From NCBI GenBank assembly GCA_964016885.1, contig OZ024743.1, forward strand, positions 147,994,001-148,058,000: a DNA stretch of 64,000 nt, given 5' to 3'. A program made the position numbers and the translations under genes. Positions within the stretch are counted from its first letter, which is position 1; every line of letters starts with the position of its first letter. The DNA is from Eledone cirrhosa. Taxonomy: Eukaryota. The notes under the pieces are model-generated. The model saw only the letters and a list, made by a program, of their open reading frames with translations, did not search any database and was not told the origin of the DNA. This document shows positions 1,951-55,956 of the stretch, one piece after another.

Positions 1951-2859
1951 TCGCGTGTGTGGGTGCTTACTCTGGAGTGTGAACAGACGTGAGAGATGCT
2001 GAACCCAGCATGACTGCATTGAAGTGTGTCGGACGCAAAATGGCTGATGACCCGTGTAGCAGTAAATACTGACCAGAATTTGTGATGACGTGGAGTAAAA
2101 ACAGCCAATGGCATGACAAGAGTGGAAGAGGGTTTTTTGAGGGTGTTTTTTTATGGTGCGCTTTCATCAGATAAAATAAAGATTTGTCTTTATAAATAAC
2201 TATTTACATACCCGGAAAACACACACCATTAACGGTTGGAACTTCCTGGATAGTCGAGATAATATTTTATTGAGGTTAATACAAAGTAATGAGTGAGTAT
2301 GCAAACGAGTGTATATATATATATATATATATATATATATATATATATATATATATATATATATATATATATATACGTTATTCCGGGTTGAATCGGAGGT
2401 AACCACAGTAAGTAAGGTACTCAATACATAGCAGAGTATAACAGTTTTAATATAGATGAGATTCTACAGGACTAGAACTGTTTCATTCATTAGAAATCAT
2501 CAGGAATCATATATATCATATATATATATATATATATATATATATATATATATATATATATATATATATATATATATATGTATACATATTTGTATATATA
2601 TATATACACACACACATATATATATATATATATATATATATATATATATATAGACATGTATGCACATACGTGTGTATGTGAGTTTATGTGTATATGTGAA
2701 CGAGGTGTGTGTGTGTGTGCGCGCGCACAAAACGTCCGCCTAAATTCACAAATCTGCCATGAATATATGCCCACGTATCTGGAAATCAACTCCTGTCCGA
2801 GTACAACCAGTTTTTAGACATAGAAAAAACAACAGACATTTGCAAAAACGTGTTATTGA

Positions 2860-4860
2860 TGTTGCTGTCACTGATGACACCTTAGATGTTTTATCAAATT
2901 AGGAAGTGACTTAAATGTTGCACCACTCAGTGTGCAAGTACATTTCCTAGCTGCCTGAGTGATTGGCGTTTGGTGCATTGCAGTGCCGTGAAAGCCATCC
3001 GAATTCTGACACACTGTGGTACAGATACGACATGCAATATTATGGTGAATGACTATGACGTCTGCTACGGCTTAGTAGCCCATTGTTTGACACGCACACA
3101 CTCAGAAGTAAGTTTCTCATTCGAACACCATTCTGGTAGTGATTAACATCTCCCATATATTTCGCTGCTCACTTCTCTTTAGCATAACCCATCTGATTCT
3201 GTTCAGATTCCTTAACACCACTAGATATCAGATTTCAGCACTGGGCTTTGTGAGTGGCAAGAAGTCTTTCCATGCTTCAGTGTTGATATTGACCCCTTTG
3301 AGAAATTCCTTCCGACAGTCTTGAAGACTCCTGCGTGGTTTGCAATGTTGGCGTTTGTCTGGTAACAGCTCTCCATACAACACTTATTTTAAGAGTCTGC
3401 TGTCTTTTTGGCTTACTTTGTGACCTGATCACTGAAGAAGGTCTATCATGATCATGGTCTCGATTCTTAGAAAGCAGGCCCGCTACAGCACATCAGTGTC
3501 TGCTGTATCAGACCTCCATGAGATCTTGAGTATGGACCGCAAGTATTATTGTTGAAAACATTTGACTCGATGTATATTCACCCAGTAAGTTGGAGCGAGG
3601 CTGTAAGCACACATGCGTGATACACTTCAACTTTCATGCACACACTGATATTTGACTGTTACCACATGCGCTACTACGGCATATCAAAACATCAAAACCT
3701 CTTCCCAACGTGTGTTGTTTCTGGAGAGAGAGAGAGAGAGAGAACGAGAGGGGGGGGGAGAGAGAGGGACAGAGAGACAGAGACAGAGAGAGAGAGTCAC
3801 AGAGGGAGAGAGAGAGAGAGTACTGCCTAGATAGATGAACATATCCACAAACTTCAATATGTCTCCTTTGATGAATATGGATGATCTTTTGGCTTTCCGT
3901 GTGCATAAAGGTACACTACTGTCTTTTTCTGATTAATTATTAGCTCTATCTTATCACCTGCTGTCGTGAAGCGTCCATGAGAGTCATCATCATAAAGAAG
4001 ATCACTTACCGCACAGTAAATATTTTCAATGCAGCAAGGAATCGTCGGATGTGAAAAAAGCATTCCAGTCGTTCGATATAGTATATATATATATCCCAAC
4101 ATCGTTTTTGGTGAACTCTTTTAACAAATCAGATGTAAAGAGGATAATAAATAGCGTGGAAGTAAGTAGATTACCATCCTTCACGCTTCTCTCAACTGAG
4201 AAAGGCTCTAGGGGCTCACCATTGACGCAATCCACGCCCCAATTTCATCATTATTCGTAATCTTATCAAGGCTTCACAGCTGTAAGAGAAAAATTCAAAG
4301 GGCTTAAGGGCTTCCCTATTCACAACGTCAAAAGCCTTGGTGAGATAAATAAAACAATTGTACAGATCAAGCTGTTGCTCCTTACACTTCTGTATGGGAT
4401 GCACCGTAACGATCATATCTGCAGTGCATCGATTCTGTGATTCCGGTAGGGTGTGAGGTGCAACATGTATCAGCAACCGATTAAGAAATGTAAAATGATC
4501 CCAGGATAGTTGTCACACGCGTTGGCTATCTTCTTGAAGTGGGGCACAGAAATAGCATCCTTCAATCACACCTGGTGGTTATATGTTATGAAACAGATCA
4601 TTTACTTTAGGACTACCTTGTTGCATAACCAATATACCATCTTTTCCTGGTGATTTTCCAGTGTTCATTTGTTTCACTGAGAACTTAACCTCTTCCAGAT
4701 TGGGAGGATCGTCACACTGGTAAGTGTTGGGAGGTTGGTACATGGCCTCAATCTCACCGGATTTTACGAGAGATGCATGGCTTAGAAGGACGTTAATGAG
4801 TTCCTGCCTCAATTATATTAGGCATACGCAACACTTTGTTTCTATTCTTTGACCGGCAAT
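2860..4860 (-). mobile_element. Decayed RTE (BovB-like) non-LTR retrotransposon, RT region
   Basis: Fragmentary minus ORFs: PPNLEEVKFSVKQMNTGKSPGKDGI, LPESQ..RCTADMI, KCKEQQLDLYNCFIYLTKAFDVVNREAL, VNGEPLEPFSVERSVK, LLYDDD; many stops and frameshifts; boundaries approximate. Confidence 0.8.
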
Positions 4861-52789: not shown

Positions 52790-54350
52790 TTGTGTATCTT
52801 TATACGTTTATATTGTGTTTGAAGGAACATACACGAAAGACTGATGTTTGTTTCGATTTAGGTCTTATTTAGTTTTTTATACAAATTTACCATTTGAAGA
52901 CTGGTAAATATTTAGATAGTTATGTTTTCTAAAATTTAGTATAATATAAGGATTAAGAGCATTTGCGTGAGCACGTAGAGAGAATTTCAGATTTTCCGTT
53001 GAGGATATTCAGTTTTGATTTTAAAATATATAAACATTCCATAAGACACAAGCTACATGTTTTCTTCCTGGCTTGTAAGAATGGGCTACTTTCAATTTCT
53101 TTCTTTTCTTGAATATTCTTTGAGATTCCATATATGTCTAGCTAAGAATGTTGAGCTACTGAGTTTTTTTCTGAAAGAGTGGCGTTGAACATGGTATCTG
53201 GATTTGAAATTATTAGATGTAGCCTCTATATATACATTACTGCTGTTACTAGTGGTTATAATTGTTTCTACTTTGGCACAAGGTCAACAATTATCCCAGT
53301 GTATTACTGGTACTTTATTTTATCGACCCCGTAAGGATGAAAGGCAAAGTTAAGCTCGGCGGGATTTGAACTCAGTCTGTAAAGGGACGTAACTGCGCTG
53401 CAAAGCATGGCGTCCGACCCTCTACCGATACTGCCAATCCACCGCCCTAACTAGTGGTTATAATATCTTTAGTTAAGCATTCGCCATTGAGAGGGCATTT
53501 ATCAGAGTTTCTACAGTTACATTATGTTTATTATTGTTAGATATTATGTTGCTATTTAAGATATTTAAGATATAATTGTGTACATTTATTGGAGTTAGAA
53601 GGTTTTGGAAGTTAAATATTGTTTTCTCTTATTTCTAGGTTATTTGCAGTATTGGTTTGGGTATTATTATATTTTTCTAATTTTCTATTATTACTGTAAA
53701 GTAGATAGTTAGTTATATTAGGAGGAGTAAAGTATGATGATTTTACAGTATTTATTAAAATTGAATGATAGTGTTGGGTTGGATGGAAATTTCATTCTTT
53801 TCTCTAAGATATTAAAGAATAATGTTGGTATATTGGTGGCTACGTTATTGCTAAAAGTATGGTTGAACCATGTAGTAGATTTTCTGAGATTTGTTGGTGT
53901 TTATTTTTCCAGGTTTAATTTGCTTATCATTAAATTCATTACGGTTTTTGTTAATACTAGTTCTATATTAATGGTTGTATGTATGTCTATTTTGGATTTT
54001 GGTTTTTATTATATTATTGTTAATATTAGGAATTTTCTTTTTTTTTGTTTATTCTTATTACGTTCGTAGTCTTTCCTATTTCTACGTATACACTCTTCTG
54101 TGTGTTTAGTTTGTGTGTTTTGCTTTTTGTGAAGTTACTGGTATGTTTTCACAGATAATGTAATCGTCCCTAAGTGACATATTATGAAATTTGTCTATAT
54201 TTTCTGATGAGAATGATTTGGTGTTGCTAATTGTTGATACCACTGCGCCTATCGATTGAAATATTCATATTATGTTCGATTCTTGATTGAATTTTGACCT
54301 TTTCCTTCCAAAGAATTGTAAACTAATAAACACTGCTTCGTGAAGTTTGG
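52790..54350 (-). mobile_element. Possible very old Gypsy-like LTR element relic (interrupted by SINE copy 4)
   Basis: A-rich coding-like composition on minus strand; faint knuckle-like HK..KHTEEC and RT-like SSPF..RKK, IFTSL; no intact motif. Confidence 0.25.
53263..53447 (-). mobile_element. tRNA-derived SINE, copy 4, with 15-bp TSD
   Basis: ACTAGTGGTTATAAT at 53248-53262 and 53450-53464; body is the reverse complement of the 981 family. Confidence 0.92.
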
Positions 54351-55956
54351 ATGAATTTCTCTAATTATAACTTTGTTTTATATATATATATATATATATA
54401 TATATATATATATATATATATATATATATATATATATATATATATATATATATATATATATATAAGAGAATGAGAGGTTTGTTTCAAAATGAAAACAAAA
54501 AACGAGATGTCCTACATGAGTAAAATATAAAGAAAAAAGATGAAATCCAAGATGCAACTGGAGTCTTTTTAAGAATATTTATTTGTTTCCTTTACCGGTT
54601 TCGCAGTTCTTATGCTTTCCAAAATGAGAATTGAGATGGAGGGTTTGTGGGTTTTCTCACAGAAAAAAAAAATATATATATAGATATAGATATAGATATA
54701 TCTGTGTACATATGTTTAATTAATCAATACAGATTTAAATGTAATGCTGGTAAGCCATGGCACATAGAGAAAGTTATCTAATGTTTAATATTAATAAGAA
54801 ACAAAAACAAGAGAGAGAGAGAGAGAGAGAGAGAGAGAGAGAGAGAGAGAGAGAGAGAGAGAGAGAGAGAGAGAGAGAGAGAGAGAGAGATGTACAAGAA
54901 AGTAAAATAAGAAAAAGAACAGATATACAACAGTTAATAGTTGGCTGTTGAATCTTTTCGTAGCCTCCATGAATTTGAAGAATTTATTTATGGTTAGTCG
55001 ATCCTTTATAATATATTGCACCTCCAAACTCAGTAGACATATTTTATTGCAGCTTAAAGGTGGTGGGGAACTGCTGAATATCCCTCAACAATAGACAAAT
55101 GTCATTTGTAAGTATATTATAATAGTGCCTTCTCATCAGAATGTTTCAGCTCATACAACAAACCTGACTCACAGGATGTTCTTGCTCCGTATTTTTGACG
55201 GAATTATCTAGCAAAGCTTCTCATAACATTAATGGTAAAAGCAGATTGCTAACGATATTTTCTTTCTTTTTGTAAATTTTTCTTATCTTTTCTATATCTG
55301 ATATTTCGTATCAAAGTGTTGCCTCACCTTAAATCGTTCTAATATGTTTGTGCCAGAATTTCAGATTTTGAACATTTTCCGTTTATACCATAGTTTTGAT
55401 CTCTTCTCCAGCCCCTTCAAAATGTTTAAGGACATGAAAACAGTATTGACTTCCTTATTAAAGGGGTTTAAAACCATCATACACAACTACTTTATAAGTT
55501 CTAGAGCTCTCTAACATCTGGAATTGAAATAACTAACCACACACATCATTTATCTATTCATTGCAAGTTTTACTTTATTATTATTACTTAATTTACTTTT
55601 GTTGTTATCTTCAGCCACCAGAAATAAACCTGACATGATTTGGTTCTGCATTTAGAGAAAATTTCTGCAGGAATGTTTGTACAATTCTAAAAATGGCACA
55701 GAGAGAAAGAAAAGGAAAAGATATGTATACTGAAAACAAAAGGACTAAAGAGTTGTGGTGCCTGAGAAAAGAGATATTTCATAAATAGAACCAATAGTAA
55801 GTTGATTTGTTATCTGCAATGAAGGGGTAAATGAATTGGTAATAAATATTGTTTTCAGAAGTAGATTGATATGTATCAATATCAAATCATGAATACCACT
55901 ATCGATTTTACTCTTCGAATACCTTAAATATAGTATTCCTTCTTGTCTTATATATT

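What the first reader, a model, noticed from the sequence alone, without database searches (positions are those of the whole stretch)
2470..54635. An archipelago of hammerhead ribozymes from many unrelated families, all in (TA)n-bounded islands
Seen: well-formed type I motifs at 5367-5453(-), 5795-5881(+), 6862-6930(+), 45052-45096(+) and 52624-52702(+). Decayed or partial cores occur at ~2470-2510(-), 6642-6710(-), 12541-12585, 42490-42525(-), 43172-43210, 45650-45692, 45868-45895, ~49200-49215(-)/49330, 50367-50419 and 54585-54635(-). Several have palindromic loop III (GGCC, GATC, AAGCTT, ACCGGT). Established: Penelope-like elements and non-LTR retrozymes carry such hammerheads, which work as dimers. 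Inference: most short inter-microsatellite islands here are relics of a diverse non-autonomous ribozyme-retroelement community driven by GIY-YIG/RT proteins. The weaker hits may include chance matches.
Basis: partly seen in the sequence, partly recalled or inferred. Interest (0 to 1): 0.75.

Follow-up and report, generated by a model that had tools for sequence, protein, structure and literature searches.

The report
Penelope retroelement ends carrying hammerheads
The hammerhead-shaped RNA motifs are real and are the tail ends of eleven high-copy repeat families sitting in TA repeats, three of them traced to protein-coding Penelope-like jumping genes and the rest likely spread by the same enzymes; this is a known kind of element, here very abundant, and one family spread with a changed catalytic core that is predicted to cut poorly.

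Summary
Confirmed but largely known. All named sites are type I hammerhead motifs or decayed copies (17 sites, 11 families, each with 464-2,671 first-look candidates in this 3.0-Gb, probably octopus, genome; 36,656 for the protein query). They are 3' ends of Penelope-like elements (PLEs) ending in (TA)n, often with an inverted 5' arm. One family has intact 1,278-aa RT/GIY-YIG masters, two trace to Hydra-clade PLEs, one (319 nt) and perhaps a second are tandem non-coding retrozyme-type units, six are unresolved. The window is not special: evenly spaced samples give 64 motifs in 590 kb (shuffles 0-1), about 230,000-325,000 genome-wide, against 126,247 reported for axolotl. Only 12 of 38 short islands carry a named site. 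U3-A8 cores, the U.U at the base of helix II and (TA)n targeting are published. Not found in my searches: family F has A at core position 4 in 25 of 27 unselected copies, and 5' ends do not pile up at the cleavage site, which fits insertion from uncut RNA. Cleavage and expression are untested. This scan reported the same picture before, in this genome and others.

The parts
2376..2510 (-). Family E end; hammerhead 2460-2508 with U.U at the foot of helix II; young family, identical to many copies
5261..6024 (.). Family A: 319-nt tandem non-coding unit with inverted 5' arm; hammerheads 5387-5431(-) and 5817-5861(+), U3-A8 core, G-C at 10.1/11.1, GGCC loop III, long extended helix I
6547..6959 (.). 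Family B fold-back; hammerhead 6866-6926(+) matches the family majority (C.A at foot of helix II); 6646-6706(-) has G12 changed to U
10953..12735 (.). Older copy of family C PLE (endonuclease end, inverted part, 3' UTR) with decayed hammerhead 12541-12585(+)
42461..42678 (.). Family F fold-back, 3' end of a Hydra-clade PLE; core with A at position 4, U.U at foot of helix II; 5' strand of helix I lost at the inversion
43150..43330 (+). Family G copy; hammerhead 43172-43212, A.A at foot of helix II, 4-nt palindromic loop III; old family (82-86% identity)
44330..45311 (+). 5'-truncated copy of the young autonomous PLE family C: GIY-YIG end (to 44746), AC-rich UTR, minimal hammerhead 45052-45096 identical to that of intact masters, tail running into (TA)n
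45484..45715 (+). Second family G copy; hammerhead 45650-45692 decayed (position 4 and helix II changed in this copy only)
45765..45983 (+). Family I end; family majority is a textbook PLE minimal hammerhead (9.1 bulge, G-C, no helix III); this copy has A14 and loop III changed
49105..49535 (.). Family J fold-back, 3' end of a Hydra-clade PLE; both arms have G12 changed to U, family majority intact with G.U at 10.1/11.1
50304..50715 (+). Family K; majority core U3-A8 with weak helices, this copy has C3 against A8; one locus shows a 580-nt tandem spacing
52560..52740 (+). Family D end; hammerhead 52637-52696, intact core, U.U at foot of helix II, GATC loop III
54465..54670 (-). Family L end; majority core U3-A8 with CCGG loop III; this copy has A6 changed to G

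Best explanation
The islands are the hammerhead-bearing 3' ends (pseudo-LTRs) of eleven repeat families that end in (TA)n, of which three are shown to be truncated Penelope-like retrotransposons and the others are likely PLE ends or non-coding units copied by PLE enzymes. Shown: family C has intact tandem masters (RT, CX4CxxC linker, GIY-YIG); F and J sit downstream of broken Hydra-clade ORFs; A is a 319-nt tandem non-coding unit; copies end at (TA)n and often carry an inverted 5' arm. Inferred from published PLE biochemistry: the GIY-YIG domain nicks (TA)n, RT starts 30-300 nt downstream of the ribozyme and usually stops early or flips, leaving short ends and fold-backs; repeated insertion into the same microsatellites stacks unrelated families side by side. 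The hammerheads would cut tandem transcripts as dimers through their palindromic loop III (inferred), but insertion most likely uses uncut RNA, so cleavage is probably not required for each jump.
For: Motifs far above chance (genome pattern count 67,653 forward versus 7,686 reversed control). Intact 1,278-aa ORFs in tandem at 4,286 nt with the same hammerhead as window 45052 (Pfam GIY-YIG and RVT_1). Hydra-clade motifs upstream of F and J with inverted 5' copy. (TA)4 within 40 nt of the 3' end in C 22/23, E 22/23, J 20/20, L 15/15, F 19/24, I 15/18, K 14/19, B 12/19, G 15/25, D 21/37, A 23/68 (A includes tandem-internal copies); 61 of 64 sampled motifs have (TA)5 within 300 nt downstream versus 31% of random positions. 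Hammerheads on both strands in 72 of 205 family loci. Family B relatives found by flank only: 9 of 19 pairs with two-sided changes versus 4.1 in shuffles, 0 of 500 reaching it. 5 of 197 alignment starts within 3 nt of the cut (7 after correcting a 2-nt offset in F), 66 at or upstream of the core. Uncut RNA is the dominant substrate of an anole PLE in vitro (PMC11167929).
Against: No coding partner found for B, D, E, G, I, L in the copies fetched, so their status is open. Only family A folds better than shuffles (z -5.4) and its lowest-energy fold is not the hammerhead; the other 12 of 13 have z between -1.1 and +1.6. Covariation was tested on one family only, rows are related, and 29 of 39 haplotypes were given. 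Alignment starts mix true 5' ends with subfamily divergence and inverted arms. In Xenopus only 1 of 9 tested retrozyme dimers cut in vitro. No cleavage or RNA data here.
Confidence: 0.85

Rival explanations
1. Most families are non-autonomous retrozymes that are excised as circular RNAs by their own ribozymes and copied by PLE proteins.
For: Family A has a 316-321-nt tandem spacing in 13 of 16 same-strand pairs and no ORF; K shows one 580-nt spacing; a 19-unit 468-nt array of another family was sampled; metazoan retrozymes give circular RNAs (PMC7229834).
Against: C, F and J are ends of coding elements; B, D, G and F show no same-strand tandem spacing in 90 loci; no pile-up of 5' ends at the cut.
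Confidence: 0.1
2. The hammerhead fold is kept in these elements as a structural signal for the PLE protein (binding or RT pausing), not for cutting, and many families are catalytically silent.
For: Family F fixed A at position 4 (25 of 27 unselected copies with positions 3, 5, 6 intact; the two exceptions lie at fold-back junctions), across copies 85-97% identical in the even sample; single changes in the CUGA turn gave low activity in a mutational scan (PMC9901934); 15 of 71 F alignment starts fall in 8 nt at the helix I/core border. This rival is about the ribozyme's role and can hold together with the best explanation.
Against: Ten of eleven family majorities keep a complete core with a paired 3-8 position, which argues for selection on catalysis; the anole PLE ribozyme cuts when protein is present; no intact F master was found.
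Confidence: 0.25
3. The weak motifs are chance matches in AT-rich, palindrome-rich DNA.
For: Most window copies do not fold better than shuffles and Rfam does not call them.
Against: Each weak site is a copy of a family whose majority has a better motif than the window copy; shuffles give 0-1 hits in 590 kb.
Confidence: 0.02

Closest known systems
Hydra clade of Penelope-like elements, including Hydra-1_Obim of Octopus bimaculoides (Craig et al. 2021, PMC8557442)
   Same: C-terminal GIY-YIG, DKT, CxCX5C linker, CxxC and CxH motifs, (TA)n targets, inverted 5' copies; U.U at the foot of helix II in 14 of 26 Hydra rows of File S2.
   Different: F and J are longer (about 3.3 and 4.4 kb between inverted ends versus under 3 kb); F has A at core position 4, absent from File S2; only broken copies were seen.
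Neptune/Nematis-type PLEs with minimal hammerheads (Cervera and de la Pena 2014, PMC4209133; Craig 2021)
   Same: Family C: RT, CX2-5CxxC linker, GIY-YIG with CCHH, tandem copies, minimal hammerhead with 9.1 bulge; family I majority is a textbook minimal motif; U3-A8 cores as in Schistosoma PLEs.
   Different: 1,278-aa ORF with a long Asn/Thr-rich insert; clade not fixed by a tree; very young (most of 150 scored hits 99% identical).
Metazoan non-LTR retrozymes (Cervera and de la Pena 2020, PMC7229834; bioRxiv 10.64898/2026.07.22.740005)
   Same: Family A: 319-nt, AT-rich, non-coding, tandem, one type I hammerhead per unit with palindromic loop III, in a genome with active PLEs.
   Different: U3-A8 core, PLE-like inverted arms and (TA)n ends; expression and circles not shown; no PLE whose pLTR matches A was found.

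Membership tests
Type I hammerhead ribozyme | Conserved core with paired 3-8 position and three helices | tested here: met
   10 of 11 family majorities; F deviates at position 4
Type I hammerhead ribozyme | Covariation of helices | tested here: met
   Family B relatives only: 9 of 19 pairs with two-sided changes, 0 of 500 shuffles; relatedness not controlled
Type I hammerhead ribozyme | Rfam family match at gathering score | tested here: not met
   HH9 21.4 and 17 bits versus 52; 0 hits in the 19-motif array
Type I hammerhead ribozyme | Site-specific self-cleavage | not testable with these tools
   No assay
EN+ Penelope-like elements (family C) | Single ORF with RT and C-terminal GIY-YIG | tested here: met
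EN+ Penelope-like elements (family C) | Tandem copies forming pLTRs with hammerhead, inverted 5' copies, tail | tested here: met
Neptune/Nematis clade (family C) | CX2-5CxxC linker and CCHH motif | tested here: met
   read from the protein
Neptune/Nematis clade (family C) | RT phylogeny with reference elements | not tested
   no reference proteins available as input
Hydra clade (families F, J) | DKT motif, CxCX5C linker, CxxC and CxH around E and N, no CCHH | tested here: met
   F: (RW present, third residue C rather than K); J: read from DNA (DKI instead of DKT); definition
Hydra clade (families F, J) | Insertion into (TA)n | tested here: met
   F 19/24, J 20/20
Hydra clade (families F, J) | RT/EN phylogeny | not tested
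   no tree built
Non-LTR retrozyme (family A) | Non-coding tandem unit of about 170-400 nt with one type I hammerhead each | tested here: met
Non-LTR retrozyme (family A) | Expressed as linear and circular monomers | not testable with these tools
   no usable RNA run
Non-LTR retrozyme (families B, D, E, G, I, K, L) | Tandem non-coding unit | tested here: inconclusive
   K one 580-nt spacing; others none or irregular

The most novel reading that the evidence does not exclude
A Hydra-clade PLE lineage (family F) replaced the invariant U4 of the hammerhead U-turn by A and still spread to tens of thousands of copies while keeping all three helices: either an undescribed, protein-assisted active core or natural proof that PLEs keep the hammerhead fold for a non-catalytic job, in a genome holding a few hundred thousand hammerheads, more than any count found in the papers read.
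Probability: 0.35. Interest if true: 0.55.

Novelty: new member of a known kind. Interest (0 to 1): 0.3.

Why it matters
The role of hammerheads in endonuclease-bearing PLEs is stated to be unclear (PMC8557442). This genome offers young intact masters (family C), a young identical-copy family (E), a retrozyme-type unit (A) and a family with a fixed core change (F) side by side, so the need for cleavage can be tested by natural comparison. It also shows that canonical searches miss most motifs here: 3 of 64 sampled motifs have G-C at 10.1/11.1, and a 2026 octopus repeat annotation has no occurrence of 'ribozyme' in its main text. The class, the targets and most variants are already published, so the advance is one of scale and of one core variant.

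Tried and rejected
Canonical descriptor: 0 hits. Whole-window Rfam scan swamped by microsatellite matches to miRNA models. Idea that mismatches at the foot of helix II are a new architecture: rejected, U.U and C.A are in File S2 of PMC8557442 and U.U in PMC3088659; A.A (family G) was not seen there but also occurs among family B relatives, so the position looks plastic. Idea that the window is unusually rich: rejected. Expression: no RNA holder listed; contigs of two runs of unrecorded kind were laid and say nothing on expression. Upstream extension found no ORF for B, D, E, G, I, L. BLASTP between C and F proteins: no significant match; Pfam finds nothing on the F and J pieces, while the Atlas links the F endonuclease piece to a GIY-YIG cluster (60% of members). 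A genome-wide test of selection (shared versus private changes in core versus flank) was not carried out, so selection on the core rests on family majorities only. Alignment A1 was not counted because many rows are 5'-truncated and an indel shifts helix I. One search was off by one base and was repeated. Lunse et al. 2017 on PLE hammerhead variants is not held and may already list U4 or A.A variants; a search for 'U4A' with hammerhead terms gave 0 papers.
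Full report
Setting. The window is G000:C4:147,994,001-148,058,000 of a 2,996-Mb animal genome.

Observation. A canonical descriptor found nothing. Allowing U3-A8 and one unpaired base at the foot of helix II gave 2-5 hits against 0.03-0.45 in 40 local shuffles. Rfam gave no hammerhead among 150 listed of 190 matches and only sub-threshold HH9 scores on the best site. 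I then searched the genome with ten sites as DNA and with the GIY-YIG frame beside the eleventh. First-look candidates: A 1,044, B 1,792, D 1,116, G 974, F 960, J 581, E 464, K 2,635, L 2,671, I 2,046 (40 scored each) and 36,656 for the protein (150 scored). Alignments show that every family majority is a hammerhead and that the window's weak copies differ from it by one or two changes. Seventeen sites fall into eleven families. Core as in the family majority: both A copies, B(+), C 45052, D, E, G 43172 and both F arms (helix I cut by the inversion). Damaged: B(-), C 12541, G 45650, I, both J arms, K, L.

What the elements are. Family C: upstream of the 45052 motif lies a GIY-YIG frame (Pfam E 2.7e-5). 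Elsewhere the family has open frames up to 1,302 aa, most hits 99% identical. L236 holds two 1,278-aa ORFs 4,286 nt apart with RT, a CX4CxxC linker and GIY-YIG, and the same hammerhead; the last copy runs about 240 nt past the ribozyme, into the start of the next ORF, and ends in (TA)n exactly where the window copy ends. Families F and J: in L244 and L248 the motif lies on both strands around a broken RT/EN gene. The F protein has DKT, CxCX5C, CxxC and CxH, the marks of the Hydra clade. Family A: 319-nt spacing, no ORF, inverted arms, (TA)n ends. K shows one 580-nt spacing. For B, D, E, G, I, L no coding upstream was found in the loci and 20 extended stretches examined; B and I share long TG- or AC-rich upstream sequence like PLE UTRs, so truncated coding elements are likely but not shown.

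Targets and arrangement. All 17 sites have (TA)6 within 305 nt downstream. In other copies the 3' end is followed by (TA)4 in most cases (counts in Best explanation). Motifs occur on both strands in 72 of 205 family loci, from 0/20 (G) and 0/15 (K) to 16/20 (E) (a few loci overlap). Both traits are described for PLEs. Of 38 islands of 80-1000 nt between microsatellites, 12 hold a named site.

Scale. In 59 evenly spaced 10-kb samples (60 asked, one out of range; 589,800 nt) the descriptor found 64 motifs, 19 in one 468-nt tandem array; five shuffles gave 0, 0, 0, 1, 0 and the reversed sequence 0. That is 108 per Mb (bootstrap 54-185) or 78 per Mb (47-112) with the array counted once, i.e. about 325,000 or 234,000 per genome. 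A pattern for the U.U type alone gave 67,653 forward matches versus 7,686 for the reversed control (the reverse-strand count lists several ends per site). The window gives 4 per 64 kb with the same descriptor, so it is ordinary. Published counts seen: 126,247 in axolotl, about 9,000 minimal motifs in Xenopus and 2,000 plus 1,300 in Schistosoma. Descriptors differ, and I recall (no call) higher totals for Schistosoma, whose density may be similar.

Variants. U3-A8 (A, K, L) is known from Schistosoma PLEs and elsewhere. U.U at the foot of helix II (D, E, F) occurs in 14 of 26 Hydra rows of File S2, C.A in a Chara element. Family B relatives found by flank alone vary at that position (C.A, A.A, U-A, U.U) and show two-sided changes in 9 of 19 pairs (29 of 39 haplotypes aligned, near-duplicates left out). 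Family F has A at position 4: 20 of 21 bystander and 5 of 6 evenly sampled copies with positions 3, 5 and 6 intact, from 55 hits of which 19 were truncated or short; the two U cases sit at fold-back junctions, where the reverse complement of the arm recreates a canonical-looking core. F gave 18 matches in 11 of 59 samples at 85-97% identity. A sister motif with U4 exists. Changes in the CUGA turn gave low activity in a type III ribozyme scan; U4C is a known natural variant that stays viable in a viroid; U4A was not found (Lunse 2017 not available).

Mechanism. Shown: anatomy, targets, masters. Inferred: GIY-YIG nicks (TA)n, RT primes downstream of the ribozyme, early stops and strand flips leave the islands. 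Palindromic loops III fit dimeric cleavage of tandem transcripts, untested here; only family A folds better than shuffles and not into the active fold. If cut RNA were the template, copies should start at the cut; 5 of 197 alignment starts (7 after a 2-nt correction for F) do, 83 start further 3', 43 between core and cut and 66 at or before the core, with 15 of 71 F starts at the helix I/core border (alignment ends are a rough proxy, and the E and G queries were too short upstream). This agrees with the anole PLE, where ribozyme mutants insert normally and uncut RNA dominates.

Papers seen: PMC8557442 passages, section 11, supplement parts 1-2 of 59; bioRxiv 10.64898/2026.07.22.740005 parts 1-3 of 5 (its supplements not seen); PMC4209133 parts 1-2 of 4 (supplements with motif alignments not seen, may bear on variant novelty); PMC11167929 abstract and main text; passages of PMC7229834, PMC3088659, PMC6155905, PMC6765202, PMC13282606, PMC9901934; Lunse 2017 title only. 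Searches for prior print.

Earlier scan notes report the same picture in this genome and in at least four others, with estimates of 200,000-400,000 motifs and a case of fixed core changes; a look-up with the family F stretch found no look-alike note. My reading was set before these look-ups.

Verdict. Real, well explained by known PLE and retrozyme biology; new members of known kinds, notable for abundance and for one fixed core change. Interest 0.3.

Noticed in passing
window 19700-37200 (-): Three tandem copies of an L1/Tx1-type LINE, the first with an open 1,195-aa endonuclease/RT frame and a 702-aa upstream frame, next to (TAA)n; further fragments at 43619-44020 and 56400-59200.
   Followed up: partly
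window 13037-15813 (-) and 37449-39400 (+): Broken frames that look like R4/Dong-type retroelements with a restriction-like endonuclease (label recalled; Pfam gave no hit on three pieces).
   Followed up: no
window 41083-42141: Complex fold-back of a roughly 280-nt unit between microsatellites, arranged like a PLE insertion but with no hammerhead found.
   Followed up: no
window 43387-43577 and 50874-51030; L244 4510-4725: A recurring palindromic element with a shared tail that lies in (TA)n, without a recognised ribozyme.
   Followed up: no
   Followed up: no
window 6053-6337: Island with far higher contig depth than its neighbours in both laid runs, i.e. a very high-copy repeat; not identified.
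   Followed up: no
L317 (G000:C22:12,000,001-12,010,000): Array of 19 near-identical 468-nt units, each with an intact U.U-type hammerhead; a good retrozyme candidate that Rfam misses.
   Followed up: partly
window 49105-49414: Both arms of the family J fold-back share the same G12-to-U change, absent from the family majority; suggests a dead template or conversion between arms.
   Followed up: no
L257 964-1923, L120 187-792, L174: A second family C-like PLE protein at about 60% identity; its own hammerhead was not identified.
   Followed up: no
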